64,000 bases of DNA from positions 264,616,001-264,680,000 of the forward strand of contig OZ024742.1 of NCBI GenBank assembly GCA_964016885.1, given 5' to 3'. Source of the DNA: Eledone cirrhosa. Taxonomy: Eukaryota. Below are positions 2,405 through 14,200 of this stretch, piece after piece. Position 1 is the stretch's first letter; the number at the start of each line of letters is the position of its first letter. The notes under the pieces were generated by a model. The model saw only the letters and a list, made by a program, of their open reading frames with translations. It did no database searches and had not been told where the DNA came from. Both the position numbers and the translations under genes were made by a program.

Positions 2405-3452
2405 CATCACCATCATCATCTTCGTTTAACGTCCACTTTCCACGTTAGCATGGGTTAGACGGGAGTTGTGTTGTCCCACCTGAGGCAAGGTTGGTCGGGT
2501 GACCGTGTCTCGCTCATATAGGACTATCTGGCAAGTTTTCTACGGCTGGATGCCCTTCCTAACACCAACCACATTTACAGTGTGGAACTGGGAACTTTTT
2601 ACCGTGTTACCTACACGGCCACATTACAGCATGGACTGTCTGTTTTTTTTTTCTTGTGACCCCTACACGATCTCGATCTCGATCTCATTTATCTCATTTA
2701 TTTGGACTGGATGTTGTGGTACCACTGGGTGGTGTTGGTCGGTGTGGGAGGATAGGGTAGGGGTAGTGGATTGGGGTGTATATTTGGTTAAGAGGTGCCT
2801 ACTGACTGTAGATTTCGCTTTGTACATAGGCAAGGCGGGTCTTCTGTATTACTGCATAGCGCCAAAGATCTCGGTCCAGTGACATTGTCTTCGAGAGGTG
2901 CAAGTGTGTAAGGTCGGAATTTATCAGATTGTCCCAGGTTTTTCTGGGTCTACCTACTCCGTAACTACCATCAATTTTGATCGCCCTGCACTTTTTTATA
3001 CAGCTGTCGTCTTCCATGCGCATCACGTGGCCATACCAACGTGGTCTTCTCTTGAGTAAACAGCATCTGATCCCTCTTATTCCTAATTTCTCACTTAATT
3101 CATTTATGCTTTGCCGTTCACGTATATTACTATTGCACATCCAACGGAGCATGCAAGCTTCGTTCCTCTCCAGTCTGCGTATATCCTCTGCACACAATGC
3201 CCATGTCTCACTGCCATGTTAGATTGCTGTTCGTATGCAGGCATCATACAATCTGCCTACAGCGGTATAAACTCTCTGAACTTTTTCCATCCCGTTCTGA
3301 CTCTAGCTACTGTACTTTCAGAACACCCTCCACCATTGCTGATTTCATCACCCAGGTAACGGAAAGTGTCTACTATTTCTATAGAACCATCTGGGCAATA
3401 GAAGGGACTAGTATCCTGTGGACACTTGCTACCTATTGCACCTGAGCATCGG
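2405..3452 (-). mobile_element. 5'-truncated RTE LINE (family A): RT C-terminus, 3' UTR and (GAT)n tail
   Basis: ORFs 3257-3538 and 2799-3197 (VDTFRYLGD..ARVRTGWKKFRE; RRPRWYGHVMRM..GRPRKTW); (CAT)n on + at ~2405; (TA)n flanks. Confidence 0.9.
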
Positions 3453-3453
3453 C

Positions 3454-3494
<41 letters not shown>

Positions 3495-3500
<6 letters not shown>

Positions 3501-4374
3501 AGATAAGCAGAACAAGTAAAATTCAACCAATTTTTCAAAGTAAATCAAAATTAATATACAATTAAAATTAATCAAAATTAAAAAATATAATATAAATATT
3601 TACCTATTCAAATGGCCCTAACTGTACAGTTTCACTTTGCAAAACATTAGATATCACGTAGATATTAATGGAAAAGCAAAGATCATCAGAGAAGCATTTT
3701 CCTATCCTAGGGTTAAAAACCCCAGGAACAACAAAATATATGACCTCACTCCAACTAATACAGGTCTGAAAGGTCGTGAAAGTGACCCATAAATACGTTG
3801 GTGTATAGTGAAGGCGGGAAATCATAGACTAGCCGTCTATGATCGCTACCAAAAAAGATTTTTAGTAACTAAATAGAACGACAAGATTTTTCTCTACTTA
3901 CTGGAGAACCTCAGATATATATTAACCTTATTCAATATTCTCCAGTAAGTAGAGAAAAATCTTGTCGTTCTATTTAGTTACTAAAAATCTTTTTTGGTAG
4001 CGATCATAGACGGCTAGTCTATGATTTCCCGCCTTCACTATACACCAACGTATTTATGGGTCACTTTCACGACCTTTCAGACCTGTATTAGTTGGAGTGA
4101 GGTCATATATTTTGTTGTTCCTGGGGTTTTTAACTGTACAGTTAGGTCCATTTGAATAGGTAAATATTTATATTATATTTTTTAATTTTGATTAATTTTA
4201 ATTGTATATTAATTTTGATTTATTTTTAAAAATTGGTTGAATTTTACTTGTTCTGCTTATCTTGATATTAAGTTCTGGTATATCAAATTATTACCATAGA
4301 ACCACCTTAAATCATAGACACACTATATATTTCCTGGGGTACATTGTACCCTCAGATATATATTGACCTTATTC
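3495..4374. mobile_element. Fold-back element 2 (arms 3495-3908 / 3938-4268) with terminal redundancy, probable PLE pLTR or retrozyme-like element
   Basis: Long inverted arms; the left arm has an extra 83 nt (3632-3714); loop 3909-3933 is repeated directly at 4350-4374; (TA)n flanks. Confidence 0.75.
3614..3695 (-). ncRNA. Type I hammerhead ribozyme motif
   Basis: Minus strand reads gcttct-CTGATGA-t ctttgc...gcaaag t-GAAA-CTGTACAG-TT-agggcc. Stem III is palindromic (ACTG TA CAGT), the cleavage triplet is GUU, and stem I has 4 bp including G-U pairs. Confidence 0.6.
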
Positions 4375-4682: not shown

Positions 4683-5212
4683 TAAAATAAAATAAAATAA
4701 AATAAATAAGTCAAATGTTTAAAATTTGGCTTCGTTTATTACTGCTATATATATTTCGGTGTCAGCCATCTTTGGCTCTGACCTCTTCATGCAGTCCGAA
4801 TTAGTGTGGTAGAGACGAGTACACATGTTGTTGAGGTGTTTAACTTTGTCAATACTCTGACATGCCCAGTTCCTGGTTGGGTTGTTGTTTCACTGAGATA
4901 TGATTCCAGTTCCTCAGTGAAACAACAACCCAACCAGGGACTGGGCATATCAGAGTATTGACAAAGTTAAACACCTCAACAACATGTGTACTCGTCTCTA
5001 CCACACTAATTCGGACTGCCTGAAGAGGTCACAGCCAAAGATGGCTGTCACCGAAATATATATAGCAGTAATAAACGAAGCCAAATTTTAAACATTTGAC
5101 TTATTAATTTTATTTTATTTTGCATTACTCCGGAGTAACCAAACCAACCTGCGCACTTCGTCGAGTGCCCCAATCTGCGTACTGAGGTGTTGGTATACAA
5201 CCAACATATACT

Positions 5213-5215: not shown

Positions 5216-5255
<40 letters not shown>

Positions 5256-5258
5256 TAT

Positions 5259-6328
5259 ATATTGTTATACTTGGGGAGGGTCATATTTGTGTAATATTGC
5301 CAAAATTAATAACAGAACACACTCACTGTTTGGTTGGTTTTCCCTTCTGTGTCTTTTATATCGGTGGTTAATTTAATTTATTCGGTTCTCAATGTTACCA
5401 TTGACTGACCAACGGTCAAAAATACAGATACAATATAGACACAAACACATATATATAGTCTATCAAAGTTCTTTTGTTACACATCTGCAACATCGTCTGT
5501 GGTGCTATTATGTTTCCTCCCGTTGCATTGTATGCCTATGCTATCTTTATTTAGTCTGTTTATTTATTTATTTATTTATTTATTTATTTGTTTATTTTTT
5601 GTCTTCTCTGCGTTTGCGTGTGTGTATAGTGTTTTGTTTGATGTGTGTTCGTATTTGGGTGACTGTGTATTGGTTAATGTATTCTATCTTAGTTTACTAG
5701 TGTGTGTTTATATGTGTTTGTTGTTATTGTGCTTGTGTATTTATTTATTTATTTATTTATTTATACTTCTCTTAGGTCAGTGTTGTTTGTTTGGGTGTTG
5801 TTATTCCATTCGTTTTTTCTGTTTAGCCTTGGCCTTCTAAGTTCTATTTCGCTGGCCTCTCTGATTTGCCTATCTGCTGGGTTATTTCTATGTTTAGATA
5901 TTATTCTAATGTCTATGTTACCGTTTTTTATAGTTACCCCAGTCTTGGTCTATCCTTTCACCTATGCTACGAGCAGTCTCGCCTATGTATGTTGTTGTCA
6001 TGTTTCTGCAAGTACCCTCTGTACATCTTATGCTATAGACTACGTTTCTAGATTTACAGTTTATCCAGGGGTTTACTTTACATATGATACATTTCCTATT
6101 AGTACAGTGGGTTTTCTTAAAAGGGTAGGTTTTACTGATCAGGGATTTTATGGTGGTTCCTGGACCGAATAAATTAAATTAACCGATATAAAAGACACAG
6201 AAGCGAAAATCAACCAAACAGTGAGTGTGTTCTGTTATTAATTCTGGCAATATTACACAAATATGACCCTCCCCAAGTATAACAATATTTGTTTCGATAC
6301 ACGATTTCATTTCAAAAACCTCGCAAAA

Positions 6329-6331: not shown

Positions 6332-6383
<52 letters not shown>

Positions 6384-7097
6384 TGGTAAAAAATCGAGTT
6401 CCACATTCATAGGCTCTGGGTTCCACATTCAGAGGTCGTCGTCAGACCGGGGGGGATCATTTGACCCTGGTTTGAACACCAATTGGGCCATAACCATACC
6501 CCTATTTCATCATTCGGCGACACGCCTCATGTGTCATGCATAATGTGAATGGACCCATGGGCCCATGAGCACAGATCTTGAGCAGCAGCGGACGGTCTTG
6601 TCGTCCCGCTCATCCTTGATCTTGACCAACCCGTCCATCTTCTCCTTGCATCTTGTCCTTGAGTTAAAGTCCGGCAGTCCAGATGAATGCGTGCCACAGC
6701 TTTCTGGTACAGGAAGGGGGGGCAGGAGGACTGGAGGGATGGCAGGACAGAGGGAGGGAGGACCGGTGGTTGAGGGAGGTGCCGTAGTCGGTGGTCAGAG
6801 TCGACATCTTGTCCCGGTCGTCTTCTCCATCTGCGTCTGGTGTTGCGGGACCAGAAGTGCATTCTTGGAGGAGACCTGCAGCTGCATCAGCCAATTCTTC
6901 TTGCAATGGTCATTCTGACGGAGCAGAACTGCTCAGCCAACCAAACCCAACCAGAACCAACCGCTCAGGGGCAACGCACAATGAGAGCATGACAATTATT
7001 ATGCACTAATCAAGAAGATACTGGGGCATAGCACAGGAAACGAATAAAAAAATTTTGCCACTAATATTATTGTAAACATTTTTTATTTCTTATCCAA

Positions 7098-7215
7098 TTC
7101 TTTAAAGTTTTATCTTAGTTTCTTGTCCTATTCTTTTAAAGTTTTATCTTAGTTTCTTGTCCTATTCTTTTAAAGTTTTATTTTAGTTTCTTGTCCTGTA
7201 TTTTTAAAGGTTTAT
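7098..7215. repeat. Tandem repeat, ~33-bp unit, about 3.5 copies
   Basis: ttcttttaaagttttatcttagtttcttgtccta repeated. Confidence 0.9.
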
Positions 7216-7536
7216 ATACCAACAATATTACTTTTTTTTGCTGTACGCATTTTTCTATCTGGTCTACTATTTTTTAAGGCAATGCAAGCAACAACTATCT
7301 AATAATTAAATGATCATAGTGAATTACTGACAAGTGATTGACATTTTAAAGTTCTTTTGAGTATAATTGCAATCTAGTTGAGGCAATTGGCTTAATGACA
7401 AAGCTAGTAAATCATGAATGCATTTGAGATGATTAGTGCATAATAGTGAATTGGTGAAACTTGTGCATTTCAATGGTGTTACAACAATAGATGTAAGTTA
7501 TATAGTAGTAATACTTTATCATTTTAACTTTTTAGA

Positions 7537-7896
7537 ATGGACAAAAACCCATGCAAAGAAATGACTTTGACTGCAGTGATTCTCTCCAATTTACTTACAA
7601 AGCAAAACGTGGTCAAATACCTTATCATCTCTGATAAAATGCCCATTGAATCACTGAAAATCGGATGCATGGAATTCCTCATAAAATGCACCTATGAATC
7701 GGAAGCCATCACATATATCAATGGATATAGGGAGTTGTTCACACTGGAAGACCATCACTTCATTTGTGACTTCATCAGTTATCTCCACGATTATCTCAGA
7801 CACCCAATGCCATTGATGAGAGGTGATCCAATGTGTGAGCATGTAACTAATCTTATAGAAGTTGTTATCGACCACCTGGCTTTTAGTGACATTTGA
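7537..7896 (+). CDS. 119-aa ORF resembling the BACK-like helical region that follows BTB domains in SPOP-type proteins
   Basis: LSNLLTKQNVVKYLIISDKMPIESLKIGCMEFL..INGYREL fits the L..(E/Q)NV...LI..D......LK..C..F...G pattern by eye. It is preceded by a possible 43-nt intron (gtaagt 7493..tttag 7535). The domain call is recognition only. Confidence 0.45.
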   Translation: MDKNPCKEMTLTAVILSNLLTKQNVVKYLIISDKMPIESLKIGCMEFLIKCTYESEAITYINGYRELFTLEDHHFICDFISYLHDYLRHPMPLMRGDPMCEHVTNLIEVVIDHLAFSDI

Positions 7897-8054
7897 CTGA
7901 TTTGACTGATAATGATGTATTTTTAAAAAGTATGTGTACATTCTTGTTACTATTTTAAGGCAATGCAAGCAACAACCATTTTATAAAATTTAAATTTAAA
8001 AATGACCATTGTGCATTACTAGTATGATGACATTTTATTAAGTCACAAAATTAG

Positions 8055-8814
8055 TCAGTCAGCCATAGAACAAGGATCAGGTGGCAAAAACATTGGCAAA
8101 AATTGTGTCAATTTAAGATTTCCAACATTGTTCAAATGAATCATATCTGGTTTGAAGTCAGATTTGTCAAATTTTGACCAATTTTCAATGTTGTGAAGAT
8201 TGGGCAAGTTCAATTTTTGAATCATTTCTTTCATGCAGTAATTAAACTTTTCCAAACGAGAATTTCTCTTGCCCAAGTCATTTTTATTTTCAATTACACT
8301 TTGTGGACGTGGAATGACACCACTGTAGAAAATGGGTGTACAGTGGTGCTTTTCCGCTATTTTCTGTAGCCTTGCAAAGAGACTCTTCCCCTGTTTTTCC
8401 GGTTTTGTGCCTCGAATGGGCACTTTGTCCTTAATTTACAAATAAATGATTAATAAAAAATACTTGGGCAAAAATTATTGTATTACTTTGCACAGCTTTG
8501 TAGTGCCAACGGTGCGACGAGGATTCAGATCATTAGAGCCGACATGAACCACCAATACTTTCACAAAAGGACAACAGATAACAATGTTGGCGATTAACAT
8601 TACCTGGCTCTGACAGGCCCCAGGTATACAAAATATCTAAGTATTTTTGTTGGTATGATAAGTAAATACATTTGAATTAATATTTGTATACCTTCTGGTC
8701 ATTCGATTTCGCCACATTTCTAATTATGGATTTGTAAAAACTGGCATGAATGTGAATTTGATCAGTCCAATTGCCCGATTTTAGTGAAATGGAAATACTC
8801 CAGTTCCGTGCCAT
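8055..8814 (-). CDS. Three-exon SGNH/GDSL hydrolase-like gene (exons 8814-8692, 8636-8487, 8429-8055; ~215 aa)
   Basis: The spliced frame is open from ATG 8814 to the stop at 8055 and has all four blocks in order: KSIIRNV, FCIPGA, VVHVGSND, then SGVIPR..DMIHLNNVG. Introns are GT-AG, 55 nt (8691-8637) and 57 nt (8486-8430); the second contains an in-frame stop. Confidence 0.75.
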
Positions 8815-8903
8815 GGAAAAAATGAATAAGCCGATCAAAAAGCCGCGAAACATCATTTTTAATTAAGCGAAATTAGTGGATGCAAATCTCAGAAAATATT
8901 GTA

Positions 8904-8976
8904 CACTATTCGCACCTATCGCACTATTCGCACCTATCGGTACAAAAATATAGCGCACTATTCGCACCTATCGGTA
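8904..8976. repeat. Short repeats of cactattcgcacctatcg (3 copies) upstream of the SGNH gene
   Basis: Seen directly. Confidence 0.85.
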
Positions 8977-9148
8977 CAACAAATCGCACGACTGTTAATA
9001 ATACTAGAAGTGCAAACTATCTGTTGAATACCTGGTATATGAAGAGCAACCGATACGATCGGTCGGCGATCGGTCTTGAAGAAGAATGAAGAATGAAGTG
9101 AAATTTTGGTCTGGTTGTTGTCATCGGTGTTTCGCAGAGATGCCGGCA

Positions 9149-9246
9149 CGAACAAAGGTGTCAGTGACACAATGTTGTCCGCTTGAACAAAGGTGTCGGT
9201 CCGACAAAGGTGTCAGTCAGACAGTGTCACAGTCGGTGCGACAAAG
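9149..9246. repeat. Array of acaaaggtgtc(a/g)gt-like motifs, possibly DNA-transposon subterminal repeats
   Basis: The motif occurs at ~9152, 9187 and 9204, with degenerate copies after; the function is inferred. Confidence 0.5.
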
Positions 9247-9415
9247 CGATCGATGCGATTAAAAAAAATTTAACTCACATGTTTACCTATATTTTCGCAA
9301 ACTATTGATAGATTGGTACAAAAAATAGCTTTGATAATAAACATAAATTTTTAACGAAGTATTTAAAAAGCATTTTAGCAGTGAAAAGTGAAGTAATGTT
9401 TCACACTGACGCAAG

Positions 9416-9546
9416 TAGGGCCGTTCAGAAATGACGTGGTCAATTAGGAGGAGGGGATTCGGCGATTTGACTACATTTGACTAACGTAATCACAATCACA
9501 AGAGTTCCGCCGAAAAAAAATTCGTCATTTCTGGTTACCTCCCCTA
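9416..9546. mobile_element. Small MITE-like element with imperfect TIRs
   Basis: Left end tagggccgttcagaaatgacg versus reverse complement of the right end taggggaggtaaccagaaatgacg. Confidence 0.4.
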
Positions 9547-9825
9547 GCGTCATGCTTACTACTCAAGATTTATCAGCAAACTTTGATTATAAACTTTTTC
9601 CCGCTGGACCAAATTTCTAGATTTTTAAGCCAAAAGATGCGTAATGATCTACTGTTCATGCTCATATAAGTTTTATTTCAGTTAAATAAAGTAGAGCCGC
9701 GCTGTACTGTCGTAAACAGACGATTGCCAACGAAAACACGACCACAACAATATTACTAAACGGACTACACATCTTTAGTAAAAATGCCAAATGTACATAT
9801 TTCTTTGTCAATTGAAACAAATGTT

Positions 9826-9878
9826 AAACACCTTTAACAAATTTTCAAGCCTATTTCGGCTTTCATCAGTAAGCATGT
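9826..9878 (-). ncRNA. Hammerhead-ribozyme-like motif
   Basis: Minus strand reads catgctta-CTGATGA-aagcc gaaata ggctt-GAAA-a tttg t-TA-aaggtgt. Stem II is perfect; stem I is wobble-rich with a mismatched first pair. Confidence 0.55.
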
Positions 9879-10212
9879 ATATCATCTAAACAACCACGAG
9901 GAAATACACAATCGAGCTTATATACCTTATCATTTATAGTAACATTGTGAAATGGATGTACAAATTTACATATTATTAGCATGTTGGAAGTCAATTAGGA
10001 TATATATTAAGTCAATTAAGCTATGTTAAGTGAACCCTTGAGAAAGCTTGAGAAAAGAAGCTGAAACCACAGGGCTTGTGGCTGGGATTCATCCTTTTCA
10101 GTATACCCACTGTGCATCTCAACATGCATCAGGTACTATCCTGTTTGTTGACTTTTCACTCTTTGCACCACAGACACTCCATATATTAGGAATTTATATA
10201 TATAAATATATA

Positions 10213-10445
10213 TCATCATCATCATCGTTTAACGTCCATCTTTCACGCTAGCATGGGTTGGACGGTTTTGTCTCACTTGAGGCGAGATTGGGCGGGAGAC
10301 TGTGTCTTGCTCGTACATAACCGTTTCAGGCAGGTTTTCTATGGCTGGATGCCCTTCCTAACACCAACCACTCCTACACGACTACTTTACAGTGTAGATG
10401 GGTGCTTTTTGTCGTGTCACCTACACGACCCCTTTATAGTGGATG
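10213..10445 (-). mobile_element. RTE 3'-end fragment
   Basis: (CAT)n plus the conserved 3' UTR motifs gctagcatgggtt..gacgg and ggctggatgcccttcctaacaccaacc. Confidence 0.8.
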
Positions 10446-10842
10446 GAAATGGGAGTAGTGTTCCTAATTCATGGTTAAGTGATTCATAAAAGGAAGAGAG
10501 TAAAAGGAAGACTGTAAAAAAAACCAAGAAACTCACAAATCCCATCTCTACAATATTAGAAACATAAAGATAAAACAGTAAATACCTGAACACATACAAA
10601 CTTATATATATATAGACAGGTGTGTGGTGGCGTGGGTGGGTGTAAGCATATTAGATGGAAATATTAAATATATATTAAATATTGAATGAAAATATGTATT
10701 CCACATAGACAAGTGTAAAGGGCTAAGTACATTTATGAATGGTTACAATATATGTTTTTCAGAATAAAATTAAGGAAATGGTAATTCATTTTTAAGAAGT
10801 ATTCTTTTGTTCCGTTAACCTGTGTGGAAAGTTGTGTGTGTA

Positions 10843-11255
10843 TCATCATCATCATCATCATCACCATTTTACGTCCATTCTTCCACGCTAGCATGGGTTA
10901 GACGGGTTGTCCTGTTGTGGTCAATGCCAGGTCAGGTGACCATGTTTTGCTCATACGGAACTGATTCTGGCTTGATTTCTACAGCTGGATGCCCTTCCTA
11001 ACACCAACCTCATTTATTACTGTAGCACCTACACGTCCACTTTACAGTGTGGGCTGGGTGATTTTTGTCATGACACCTCCATAACCACTTGACAGTGGGA
11101 GGGGATGGGGTATACTGTCTATATGCTTCAGCTTCGGGTCTTCTGTATTACTGCATAACGCCAGAGGTCTCGGTCCTCTGTCATAACCTTTGAGAGGTGC
11201 AATTGGGCAAGGTCAGCTTTTATCACCTCATCCCAGGTATTCTTGGGTCTCCCAT
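10843..11255 (-). mobile_element. Short 5'-truncated RTE copy
   Basis: GRPKNTWDEVIKADLAQLHLSKVMTEDRDLWRYAVIQKT, plus 3' UTR and (GAT)n tail. Confidence 0.85.
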
Positions 11256-14200
11256 ATATGTATATACTATTGGATAATTGGTCTTTTAGTTGGCTATCAG
11301 AATGTAGTTGGTAGGTAATAGTGAATGAGTGATTGGGTAAAACTGTTTCCCAAAGTACAAAAAAAATTATTTTATTAATTTTGTTATGAAAAATGTTTTT
11401 TAACTCTTTTGGTACCAAACTGTTTGAAACCGCACCTGATTCTAAGATACACAACTGTTTGTGTTAAAACATGTTTGTCTATACACCTTGCATCATAATT
11501 CTATATTCCACACACTAACCTAATAATGAATATTTTCAAAATTAATGACACCAGTATCTTTCATTAGAAATATGTAATAAAAGGGTTAATCATTAAAGCT
11601 TGTGAGTACTGCTAGCCATTTGTTTTAGTTTGGTGTCAGAAATTTACCCTCACCATAAGTTAAAATATATCCTGAATAACAAAGTTTTACACTAATAGAG
11701 AAACTCACTTCAAGAAATAAAAATGTATCTAATTATAAAACTTCATATTACAGTAGATGGAAGAAATATAGTGTAAAGCAAAGGAGGAGTGAATATATTT
11801 TCTTAGGGAAACAAAATACTCAAATAGAATGGATTGAACAACCAGCTTATGAACTGTAAATTCATATCCACTGTAACAGTTTTATCATATCTATAAACAG
11901 ATATGACTTAGCCTAGTTAGCTGGAAAATAGGACTATCAGATCTATCAGGAAGGTTATTTGTAAAAGACTAGCAACTAATTCAAGGGGAAAATTTGTCTC
12001 TCTTTCACTTAACATCTCACTATCTATGAATTCCTATGTTTTCTAGCAGAAACCCAACATACTAACAAACAAAAATAGAAAATGCTGAAAATGGAATCAA
12101 GGATAGTATATAACTGTGTGTTACTACAATTTTAATAGTTTTCTCCTTTTATTTATTTATTTATTTTAATTTGCTCACCCCAAGCAAAACAATAAAGCTA
12201 CTAAAATGAAAGGGGTTACTGAGAAGGGAAAATTAAATGACAGAGAGAAGACAGTTCAAAGAAAGAAAATATGATAATTGATGTTTTTTTCCAACTTGTA
12301 GTGATTAGGAAAGCAAGAAGTCAGATGGGAATTATATAGTTGAAATTTATATTTCAAGGTGCCATGAAGAAATACACCCAATGCACTCTGTAGAGTGTGG
12401 GAGCATATGTAAGTGAGAAGCAGGCTAGAGGTTCATCTATGAGATCAGTAGCTCTGATTAAGTACTGACTTGGTCTGTGATGACCAATTTAACTTTTGCT
12501 AGCAGGGAAATAATGTTGATGATGATGAAGCAACAAACAAAGGAAATTAAAGCACATAATCCAAATGTTGTCCCAGTGGACAAAATAGTGAACATGTTAA
12601 TTTGGAGAAAGGTGAGGGAGATGCTTTGAAAGAACCAGTCCACCTCATGAGAAACATTCCAAAGTAGGAGATCAGGACATTAGATGTTTCCATTACTATG
12701 GGTTTGAGAAGAAACTGCCAAGCAGTTTCTCAGCTATTAGGCCTCAAAGCCTGGATCTGATGCCAGTTTCACCAGATTGCTACCGGTGGAAGTAATACTC
12801 CAGATCATATCTTAGACTAGAGACTTATTGCCTTGAAATAGAACAATTACTAAGATGCCAGATCTTTTACTGTCTTCTCAGTCTAACTCCACCAGTTTCA
12901 GCTACAATGGAAAACTGGTTGTGTCCAAACTACTATTAAGTTTAGATACAGGGAAGGTAATTTACTTTATTAAACTACTATTTATGAGATAATGAAGGAG
13001 GATCTATCCAATCATTCAACTGCTAAAAATAGTAGCCAAATCCAACTCAAATCACACTCTATCATCTTAAAAAAGGAAGGTCATATTGATAAACATAATG
13101 CAGTTATAAAAAAGAAAAAATAGGATATAAAGGCTGAAACACTTTTAACCAGAAATTTGATTGATCAGGGGAGGCTTGGGAGTTAAACACCAACAACCAT
13201 TTGCCTACTTTTAAAACATATAATCTTCATTGCTCTTTACATATTGTCCAACTCAATTTAATATGTAAAAATAGAAAGAAAAACAATACGACGATGATGT
13301 AAACATGTTATGATGAGGCAAAGTGTGTTCTTTTCAAATAGAGAAGCTGTCATTGGTCACTGGATAATGGCCAGTTCAAGCATGAGAAATCAATGACATT
13401 TTAGAAACACTTTGAAGACAAAACAACTAAAAACAATCAAATGATCTATACTGGAAAGCACGAACATTGTATCATTTCATATTGTCTTAGACAAACATGG
13501 AATATTCTATAGATAATATAAAATAAGATATGGTGATCTATTGGCAGAATCTATGGACTATTGGATAAACTTTGTCTTTCACCTTTTCAGGGCTTATAAA
13601 ATAAAGTATCAGTCAAATACCAGGGTTGATGTCATCAACTTTACCCTTCACCCAAATTTGCTGGCCTTGTGCCCAAATTAGAAATGAATATAAAACATTG
13701 TGTTGTTCCTCACCACCAGCAATATTATCAACTCTAACATGAAACATCTTTCATCAACAAACTTGTTATGTACTCTCAATACAAACTTATTTGGGAAAAT
13801 GATAGGAATACATTGCAAAACAACTCTTAACAACACCATATCAATTAAATCAGTAGAAACATATATCAGCACTACTAATTAGATGAACTAATAAGTATCA
13901 TCACCACCCATATGATATAAACAACATCTAAAGCATTAATAACAACTTAGAATATACTGTTAAAATAATATAACCAAACAATCTACAACCATATTGACTA
14001 TGAAGACACAAAGCTGAGATATACACACCCATCTTTCACTTACCAGGCATACACCACACATATTCTGCTAGAACAGCCACACACAAACAAATCTCCTGTA
14101 CTAAATCATATTTATTATTGTTGGTATTGTTATGTCACTGAATACTGGATGTTTGAATTGCTCATAAAATATTCCTGGAGAATAATCTTTATTAGTTCCC

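What the first reader, a model, noticed from the sequence alone, without database searches (positions are those of the whole stretch)
6380..9900. Compact cassette with an intron-containing SGNH hydrolase gene and a convergent BACK-like ORF: possible fragment of an undescribed large mobile element
Seen: removing two tiny GT-AG introns (55 and 57 nt) gives an uninterrupted ~215-aa frame (8814 to 8055) with SGNH blocks S, G, N and DxxH in order. It converges on a 119-aa ORF. The block begins at a (TA)n tract, has internal tandem and direct repeats, is visibly richer in CpG than the host DNA, and has a co-oriented hammerhead motif ~1 kb upstream. Known: SGNH/GDSL esterases are cargo of CR1/L2 ORF1s, Ngaro elements, Helentrons and the hammerhead-bearing, intron-retaining Terminon PLEs of bdelloid rotifers. 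Inference: this is cargo of a large mobile or viral element rather than a host gene. No transposase, RT or capsid gene is visible within the block, so its class is unresolved.
Basis: partly seen in the sequence, partly recalled or inferred. Interest (0 to 1): 0.8.

Follow-up and report, generated by a model that had tools for sequence, protein, structure and literature searches.

The report
Rolling-circle transposon with fold-back tail
The stretch is one of over a hundred young, shortened copies of a 12.6-kb Helitron-type jumping gene; its parent carries a predicted ADP-ribose-removing enzyme fused to an esterase and ends in a long fold-back repeat that likely helps end each round of copying, while the 'esterase gene' seen here is a hybrid made by the deletion.

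Summary
Window 6376-9768 (minus strand) is a non-autonomous deletion derivative of a 12,628-bp rolling-circle transposon of the Helentron/HLE2 group, found in the same genome. Copies start TC, end CTRG, sit between A and T without duplication, and are about 98% alike. The parent encodes a RepHel transposase fused to a ubiquitin hydrolase, an intron-containing NADAR-SGNH gene and an antisense BACK-like ORF. The two introns and blocks G, N and DxxH stand. The hammerhead-like motif and (TA)n are host flank. The ends follow the rare proto-Helentron/HLE2-reverse layout and add a 190-220-bp inverted copy of the 3' end around a 0.5-0.75-kb loop, seen in three diverged families and, decayed, a fourth, with the loop reversed in two copies. 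SGNH in Helitrons has precedent (fish texim); NADAR cargo and the fold-back end were not found in my searches, which could not include Repbase. Splicing, enzyme activity and the role of the fold-back are untested.

The parts
6376..9768 (-). Non-autonomous deletion derivative of a 12,628-bp HLE2 (Helentron-group) rolling-circle transposon; this copy lacks the first 13 nt and the outer 3' arm (about 214 nt) of a full 3.6-3.7-kb derivative
   Evidence: shared ends; maps to parent 14-1165 and 10136-12628
9758..9768 (-). Remnant of the 5' terminal hairpin (full copies: TCCT, 8-bp stem, 4-nt loop)
   Evidence: family 2 has a two-sided change in the stem
9745..9757 (-). 5' subterminal inverted repeat, 13 bp, directly after the hairpin
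8857..9744 (-). CpG-rich 5' region of the parent, upstream of the RepHel ORF (likely its promoter), with short tandem repeats
   Evidence: CpG o/e 1.37 in the parent's first kb; promoter role inferred
8727..8856 (-). N-terminal codons of the RepHel ORF (in-frame ATGs at 8856 and 8814), now serving as exon 1
8692..8726 (-). Remnant of the parent's NADAR-SGNH exon C, starting right after the block-I serine position; deletion junction at 8727/8726
   Evidence: 111 such junctions against 7 parent-type
8637..8691 (-). Predicted intron, 55 nt, GT-AG, phase 0
   Evidence: no RNA evidence
8487..8636 (-). SGNH exon with blocks II and III
   Evidence: only PDB hit is chain 4c1b_A, an ORF1-encoded protein, E 0.35 (parent copy of this exon)
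8430..8486 (-). Predicted intron, 57 nt, GT-AG, phase 0, with in-frame stops
   Evidence: no RNA evidence
8055..8429 (-). Last SGNH exon with DxxH
   Evidence: Pfam Lipase_GDSL_3 E 0.028; ESM GDSL clusters
7537..7896 (+). 119-aa BACK/BTB-like ORF, antisense to the other genes, between 85-bp direct repeats (7265-7348, 7948-8038); also present in the parent
   Evidence: full length in 34 of 46 copies; no Pfam, PDB or sequence homolog
7048..7262 (+). Inner arm: inverted copy of the element's 3'-terminal ~215 bp, with 34-bp tandem repeats, the subTIR (7220-7232) and CTGG (7259-7262)
6376..7047 (.). GC-rich loop between the two 3' arms; found in either orientation among copies; unrelated to the loops of families 2 and 3

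Best explanation
The block is a non-autonomous, internally deleted copy of a 12.6-kb Helentron-group (HLE2) transposon, likely spread by rolling-circle copying with a RepHel enzyme supplied by a longer relative. Shown: the parent, its TC...CTRG ends, the A^T target without duplication, the 8,984-bp deletion that fuses the RepHel N-terminus to the SGNH exons, and the long inverted copy of the 3' end. Inferred from the Helraiser model: RepHel nicks at the A^TC end, peels off the sense strand, stops at CTRG, joins the ends into a circle and inserts it at a new A^T site. Inferred here: the 13-bp subTIRs pair across the circle junction beside the 5' hairpin, and the 200-bp fold-back, which forms as the last 1.1 kb becomes single-stranded, does the job of the small 3' terminator hairpin that these elements lack (about 45% likely). 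The parent's spliced NADAR-SGNH product is predicted to be an active N-glycosidase plus esterase; the most likely use of the NADAR is to strip ADP-ribose from the element's single-stranded DNA (about 30%). The window's hybrid esterase is most likely a damaged passenger.
For: Copies: 39 other full-length matches at 97-98% among 40 scored of 375 candidates; 305 exact 32-nt 5' ends, control 0. Parent: DUF6570 hits lie 3-4 kb inside these ends; one copy has both ends, 12,628 bp; its relatives' ORFs hit Helitron_like_N, DUF6570, Rep, PIF1 and UCH with HUH, Y-Y and Walker A motifs. Target: A before 56 of 57 family-1 and 29 of 29 family-2 5' ends; T after 25 of 25 and 23 of 23 3' ends once three inner-arm rows were removed. 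Empty paralogous sites for 19 of 45 end pairs, 10 of them outside plain (TA)n, join at A^T without duplication. Fold-back: 97-99% identical arms in families 1, 2 and 3, whose RepHel genes are only 64-88% alike, and a decayed version in a fourth; 180-216 of the last 220 nt pair more than 500 nt upstream in a DNA fold. NADAR: three exons hit consecutive parts of PF08719 (4-67, 82-115, 120-162) and of phrog_1017; spliced in silico it scores 87-90 against E. coli YbiA, shuffles at most 48. RepHel dN/dS between families 1 and 2 is 0.18-0.43.
Against: No intact RepHel frame in the 15 long family-1 copies mapped (longest open frame 1174 aa); the two family-2 parents examined have stops; intact 2230-2245-aa frames were seen only in family 3 (7 of 54 hits), whose ends differ, so the enzyme that moved the window copy is not identified. 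No head-to-tail junction among the 86 5' flanks seen. Within one copy the arms are hardly more alike than between copies (1.06 against 1.27 changes per 110 nt; 3 shared variants against 44 and 186 unshared), so no ongoing homogenisation was shown. Some copies moved or persist without loop or outer arm (L051, L003). Each NADAR exon alone is below Pfam's cut-off. The Rep residue between G and P is A, neither the Helentron S nor the Helitron L. No tree with reference transposases could be built. No splicing or expression evidence.
Confidence: 0.9

Rival explanations
1. Same element, but the long 3' inverted repeat is an inert by-product: a fold-back template switch at the 3' end that recurs in this lineage and is simply carried along; reversed loops come from recombination between the arms in the chromosome or from assembly error.
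For: Loop contents are unrelated between families; a copy with only a short arm and no loop exists (L051); arms are not homogenised within copies; only 2 reversed loops among 38 scorable copies.
Against: Arm length (190-220 bp) and position are alike in three families whose arm sequences have diverged or become unalignable while the two arms of each stay 97-99% identical; none has a good small 3' hairpin.
Confidence: 0.4
2. The hybrid RepHel-leader/SGNH gene is a working esterase whose expression from the transposase promoter helped this derivative spread.
For: The deletion is in frame and leaves a serine at the block-I position; 27 of 40 copies keep an open frame with GT-AG introns; this derivative outnumbers parent-type genes 111 to 7; private variants give dN/dS about 0.59.
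Against: G and D of GDS and the first strand are replaced; copies are so young (0.5-0.8% from the commonest base) that open frames are expected; exons vary as much as introns; the dN/dS count ignores transition bias and includes 4 stops; shorter derivatives without SGNH are also common; an in-frame join has a 1 in 3 chance.
Confidence: 0.15
3. Cargo of a hammerhead-bearing Penelope-like (Terminon) retroelement or of a CR1/L2/Ngaro element.
For: A CUGAUGA...GAAA motif 100 nt away; Penelope-like inverted repeats just left of the block; the SGNH resembles a LINE ORF1 esterase.
Against: The motif and the Penelope-like block are outside the shared ends; the parent encodes RepHel and no RT; precise A^T ends at both sides.
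Confidence: 0.02
4. An endogenous virus or Polinton-like element, or a host gene.
For: Long terminal fold-back with two loop orientations recalls parvovirus termini (recalled); a 2A-like motif in the RepHel leader.
Against: No capsid, PolB or integrase in the 12.6-kb parent; 30 viral loci and 1 metagenome locus match only the Pif1 helicase part; hundreds of dispersed copies exclude a single-copy host gene.
Confidence: 0.02

Closest known systems
proto-Helentron-Pi of Phytophthora infestans (PMC4067079, section 11 and passages; PMC11417382, section 24)
   Same: HLE2-type RepHel without endonuclease; 3' CTAG-type end; inserts between A and T without duplication; 5' stem-loop and short inverted repeats; 12-14 kb with extra cargo genes
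   Different: Starts TC, not TT; left TIR directly after the 5' hairpin, not 3.6 kb inside; RepHel fused to UCH; NADAR-SGNH and BACK-like cargo instead of SET/TIR; long 3' fold-back; animal host, whereas HELIANO reports proto-Helentron only from Phytophthora
HLE2-reverse / FoHeli3-5 of Fusarium oxysporum (PMC5148889, passages; PMC11417382, section 24)
   Same: 5' hairpin upstream of the left inverted repeat, 13-16-bp repeat, right repeat 20-40 bp before the end, no small 3' hairpin, DUF6570; start TGCCT against TCCT here
   Different: Ends CTGG/CTAG, not CTCCTGT; clear A^T target (none established for FoHeli3-5); UCH fusion, spliced cargo and 200-bp fold-back not described in the passages read
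Canonical Helentrons and HINE/DINE-1 derivatives (PMC4067079, passages)
   Same: Palindromic subTIRs plus one stem-loop; F/Y-x-R signature before Rep motif 2; many non-autonomous deletion derivatives; UCH is an HLE2-enriched domain (PMC11417382, section 22)
   Different: Stem-loop at the 5' end relative to RepHel; A^T, not T^T; no AP endonuclease; A instead of S in the motif
Platyfish texim-Helitron (PMC4021074, parts 1-2 of 5)
   Same: Intron-containing SGNH hydrolase gene carried by a Helitron, multicopy
   Different: texim lies upstream of the Helitron coding region and has 15 exons; here the SGNH is downstream of RepHel and fused to NADAR; relatedness of the two SGNH domains not tested
YbiA-family NADAR domains in Ectocarpus Gypsy and oyster Tx1 retrotransposons (PMC12477816, passages)
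   Same: NADAR domain carried by a eukaryotic transposon
   Different: Here in a DNA transposon with a single-stranded DNA intermediate, as a separate spliced gene fused to SGNH

Membership tests
Helitron-like elements (rolling-circle transposons) | RepHel transposase: HUH Rep plus PIF1 helicase | tested here: met
   Pfam hits in parent-type copies; motifs EYQxRGAPHxH, YxxxYxxK, Walker A; absent from the window copy itself
Helitron-like elements (rolling-circle transposons) | No target-site duplication | tested here: met
   Empty sites for 19 of 45 end pairs, 10 outside plain (TA)n
Helitron-like elements (rolling-circle transposons) | Circular intermediate / rolling-circle movement | not testable with these tools
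   No head-to-tail junction among 86 5' flanks; needs PCR or reads
HLE2 (Helentron/Helitron2) | DUF6570 in the transposase | tested here: met
   marker status from PMC11417382 section 24
HLE2 (Helentron/Helitron2) | Short asymmetric terminal inverted repeats with a stem-loop | tested here: met
   13-bp subTIR and 8-bp hairpin
HLE2 (Helentron/Helitron2) | Placement in the HLE2 clade of a RepHel tree | not testable with these tools
Canonical Helentron | [quoted passage not shown] | tested here: not met
   A^T target; hairpin at the 5' end relative to RepHel
Canonical Helentron | AP endonuclease fused to the helicase | tested here: not met
   UCH follows the helicase and the ORF then ends; no endonuclease hit
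Canonical Helentron | Rep signature F/Y-x-R and G-S-P | tested here: inconclusive
   FWR present, residue between G and P is A
HLE1 (canonical Helitron) | 5' TC, 3' CTRR, A^T target | tested here: met
HLE1 (canonical Helitron) | 16-20-nt hairpin about 11 nt before the 3' end; no TIRs; no DUF6570 | tested here: not met
   At most a 3-5-bp stem near the end; TIRs and DUF6570 present
proto-Helentron / HLE2-reverse layout | 5' stem-loop upstream of left TIR, right TIR 20-40 bp before the end, HLE2 RepHel without endonuclease | tested here: met
   kinship by tree not tested
SGNH hydrolase | Block I G-D-S | tested here: not met
   Window copy has Y-K-S; parent has G-D-S
SGNH hydrolase | Blocks II G, III N, V DxxH in order | tested here: met
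   (profile hits weak: E 0.013-0.35)
NADAR / YbiA family (parent only) | Profile match and catalytic Glu, Lys, Trp, last-strand Glu | tested here: met
   E-x6-K, W and LVE motifs placed by spacing against residues named in PMC11543638 passages; last Glu is Gly in one of three copies
BACK/BTB domain (119-aa ORF) | Profile or fold match | tested here: inconclusive
   ESM features 0.89-0.92; no Pfam or PDB hit; AlphaFold pLDDT 39
Terminon / Penelope-like element | RT gene and hammerhead-bearing pLTR within the element | tested here: not met
2A ribosome-skipping peptide (parent only) | GD(V/I)ExNPGP with active upstream context | tested here: inconclusive
   GCVELNPGP in families 1 and 2, C in place of D (motif from PMC3708506 passages); activity untested; not seen in family 3

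The most novel reading that the evidence does not exclude
An undescribed animal lineage of HLE2 transposons that ends its rolling-circle copying on a 1.1-kb terminal fold-back, resolved in a parvovirus-like way that flips the loop, and that carries its own counter-defence kit: a NADAR to erase host ADP-ribose marks on its single-stranded DNA, a deubiquitinase fused to the transposase, an esterase and a BACK-like decoy.
Probability: 0.2. Interest if true: 0.85.

Novelty: new variant of a known kind. Interest (0 to 1): 0.62.

Why it matters
How HLE2 elements recognise their ends is open, and the HLE1-like TC...CTRR/A^T layout on an HLE2 transposase was reported only from Phytophthora. This genome holds young families of that layout, one with uninterrupted 2230-aa transposase frames, so the role of the subTIRs, 5' hairpin and long fold-back can be tested directly with a natural element. 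A NADAR gene on a transposon with a single-stranded DNA stage suggests that animals may use DNA ADP-ribosylation against transposons, a role for animal NADARs that PMC11125620 calls unclear. The window copy itself also shows how a deletion can put cargo exons under the transposase's start and mimic an intact gene.

Tried and rejected
Protein searches that found nothing: SGNH last exon against longer proteins and 1.84 billion representatives; 119-aa ORF; NADAR exon A; PDB searches of NADAR exons gave only chance hits. AlphaFold of the 119-aa ORF was unusable (pLDDT 39), so no fold search was run. No RNA holder listed; contigs of four runs of unknown kind showed no splice joints and are not evidence on expression. 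None of 150 scored exon hits had an open frame above 128 aa, so no intron-less copy was seen (518 candidates). The top 150 of 3704 Helitron_like_N candidates were not near the listed termini; the partner was found through DUF6570. A Polinton reading (AGTAG-like ends) was dropped once true ends and A^T sites were mapped. Within-copy arm homogenisation was tested and not found. Selection on the cargo among young copies was inconclusive. The subTIR contains a 9-mer like the NANTATTAC origin of CRESS viruses (recalled); not counted, as it is A+T-rich, the ends are elsewhere and family 3 lacks it. Literature searches without a matching report: Helentron+SGNH (one paper citing texim), NADAR+Helitron (63), proto-Helentron (78, three papers), Helentron+mollusc terms (79), 2A-like+NPGP+Helitron (55, none), 2A terms (89), Helitron+rolling hairpin+flip (106, none), NADAR+SGNH (111, one unrelated). 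Earlier scan findings: nothing relevant.
Full report
Observation. The convergent 119-aa ORF is at 7537-7896. Pfam support for the esterase is weak (Lipase_GDSL_3, E 0.028), ESM features agree, and the only PDB match of the middle exon is an ORF1-encoded protein, 4c1b_A, at E 0.35; that this is the zebrafish L2 esterase is recalled. CpG richness is confined to parts of the block. The hammerhead-like motif has the core letters and a stem II, but no Rfam hammerhead match, no unusual fold, and it lies in flank found in no other fetched locus.

The block is a repeat with exact ends. A search of the own genome (3.0 Gb; host not named; that it is a cephalopod is a recalled guess, untested) gave 375 candidates; of 40 scored, all were full length, the 39 other than the window at 97-98%. 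Copies share 6376-9768 and a little more. Read in the sense of the SGNH gene, a full copy starts TCCT, an 8-bp hairpin and a 13-bp subterminal repeat, and ends with the partner repeat, about 30 nt and CTGG. The 32-nt start occurs 305 times exactly, control 0. An A precedes 56 of 57 distinct starts and a T follows 25 of 25 ends after two inner-arm rows were removed. Of 45 end pairs tested, 19 have an uninterrupted paralogous site, 10 outside plain (TA)n; all join at A^T without duplication, one with a 4-nt gap nearby. The window copy lacks the first 13 nt and the outer 3' arm.

The parent. Hits to DUF6570, which PMC11417382 (section 24) uses to mark HLE2, lie 3-4 kb inside these termini. One copy has both ends and is 12,628 bp. 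ORFs of such copies hit Helitron_like_N, DUF6570, Rep, PIF1 and, fused at the end, UCH; no endonuclease. HUH, two-tyrosine and Walker A motifs and the UCH Cys and His boxes are kept. RepHel reads from the TC end towards the CTRG end. The window is parent 14-1165 joined to 10136-12628; 8,984 bp are missing.

The esterase gene is a hybrid. In the parent the SGNH domain begins YIVGDSIIRNV. In the window the RepHel N-terminus runs to HASFYKS and continues in frame with IIRNV. The hybrid junction occurs 111 times, the parent form 7 times. Of 40 copies aligned, 27 keep an open frame with GT-AG introns; copies differ from the commonest base by 0.5-0.8%, exons as much as introns, and a crude dN/dS of 0.59 is inconclusive.

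The parent's cargo. Upstream of the SGNH lie three more exons that hit consecutive parts of NADAR (profile 4-67, 82-115, 120-162; each below the cut-off) and of phrog_1017. Spliced in silico at GT-AG introns of 54-55 and 213-217 nt they give an open frame that scores 87-90 against E. coli YbiA, shuffles at most 48, with one 1-residue gap after the second junction. Residues spaced like E43, K50, W89, E125 and W133 of the oomycete NADAR (PMC11543638, passages) are present; this placement is by spacing, not structure. NADARs remove ADP-ribose from guanine in DNA, and their role in animals is unclear (PMC11125620, passages). The 119-aa ORF is also in the parent, is full length in 34 of 46 copies and is BACK/BTB-like by ESM features only. 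The RepHel leader of families 1 and 2 holds GCVELNPGP, one residue off the 2A signature (PMC3708506, passages).

The fold-back end. The last 215 bp are repeated in inverted orientation about 0.67 kb upstream (window 7048-7262). Family 2 (RepHel 81-88% alike, 99 exact starts, ends CTAG) has 190-bp arms. Family 3 (64-68% alike, starts TC, ends CTAG in 4 of 5 copies, longer 5' hairpin, 7 uninterrupted 2230-2245-aa frames among 54 DUF6570 hits) has 216-bp arms of unalignable sequence. A decayed fourth element shows the same. The loops are unrelated. The loop is reversed in 1 of 17 scorable family-1 and 1 of 21 family-2 copies, three more being unscorable. Arms within a copy are not clearly homogenised. 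In folds of natural copies the arms pair almost fully, and the subTIRs of families 1 and 2 pair across an end-to-end junction beside the 5' hairpin.

Mechanism. By the Helraiser model (PMC4778049, abstract and section 8) the 5' end is essential, a 3' hairpin acts as terminator, and circles form. I infer the same cycle here, with the window copy moved in trans, and propose that the long fold-back replaces the missing small 3' hairpin. The rival is that it is a recurring by-product. No intact family-1 transposase was found among 15 long copies, so the mobilising enzyme is unidentified. dN/dS of 0.18-0.43 between families 1 and 2 shows that RepHel and UCH were under purifying selection.

Comparison. 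It works like a Helitron and has an HLE2 transposase, but fails canonical Helentron tests (T^T target, 3' stem-loop, endonuclease) and canonical HLE1 tests (3' hairpin, no TIRs). Its layout matches HLE2-reverse (FoHeli3-5; PMC5148889, passages) and proto-Helentron (PMC4067079, section 11), which HELIANO found only in Phytophthora among 404 genomes. UCH is a known HLE2 domain; NADAR, SGNH and BACK are not in HELIANO's Table S11 (supplement, part 14 read and terms searched), though spliced cargo could escape its ORF scan. An intron-containing SGNH gene in fish Helitrons is known (PMC4021074, parts 1-2 of 5), and NADAR is known in retrotransposons (PMC12477816, passages). PMC13085455 and PMC12273014 were read in passages only. 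My ten library searches found no report of NADAR in a Helitron or of this fold-back end; Repbase, Dfam, subscription papers such as the Thomas and Pritham review, and most supplements could not be seen and may hold one.

Verdict. A real, young mobile element; a new variant of a known kind. The window copy is an ordinary deletion derivative, but the lineage behind it has an unusual end structure and cargo and offers a testable natural transposase. Interest 0.62.

Noticed in passing
window 5248-6299 (also 1994-2296, 3495-4268, 4689-5121): Penelope-like block with 118-bp inverted arms and a GIY-YIG-like ORF fragment (5918-6178; label recalled, no Pfam hit) directly left of the element; several other near-perfect fold-backs of 137-209 bp lie in the first 5 kb.
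   Followed up: partly
window 2799-3544 and 11128-11463: Fragments of an RTE-like LINE reverse transcriptase end (label recalled; no Pfam hit), with related short repeats at 2491, 10290 and 10930.
   Followed up: no
L235 (G000:C12:9078000-9085000, minus): Parvovirus-like genes (Parvo_NS1 E 5e-18; PLA2-like domain E 8e-9) lie next to a broken HLE2 RepHel remnant. Whether they are inside that element was not examined; observed only.
   Followed up: partly
L071-L090 (G000:C20 3.5-5.2 Mb, C27 13-15.5 Mb, C19, C16): Near-identical Helitron_like_N hits spaced about 100-130 kb apart in one orientation, suggesting very large tandem units that each carry a Helitron gene.
   Followed up: no
L227-L228 (G000:C2:253.89-253.91 Mb): A complete family-3 element with an uninterrupted 2230-aa RepHel-UCH frame sits in a 38-bp satellite array.
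   Followed up: partly
L165 (G000:C28:136.46 Mb): A family-2 derivative has inserted at an A^T site at the start of the NADAR gene's second intron in a family-1 copy.
   Followed up: partly
L151-L166: Many family-2 copies carry a second copy of the 270-bp 5' end 0.3-0.9 kb further out, and a 50-bp G-rich minisatellite inside.
   Followed up: no
L195:2663-3085: The family-2 loop holds an ORF with a Cys/His cluster like a PHD finger and a coiled end, recalling LINE ORF1 proteins; no Pfam or PHROG hit.
   Followed up: partly
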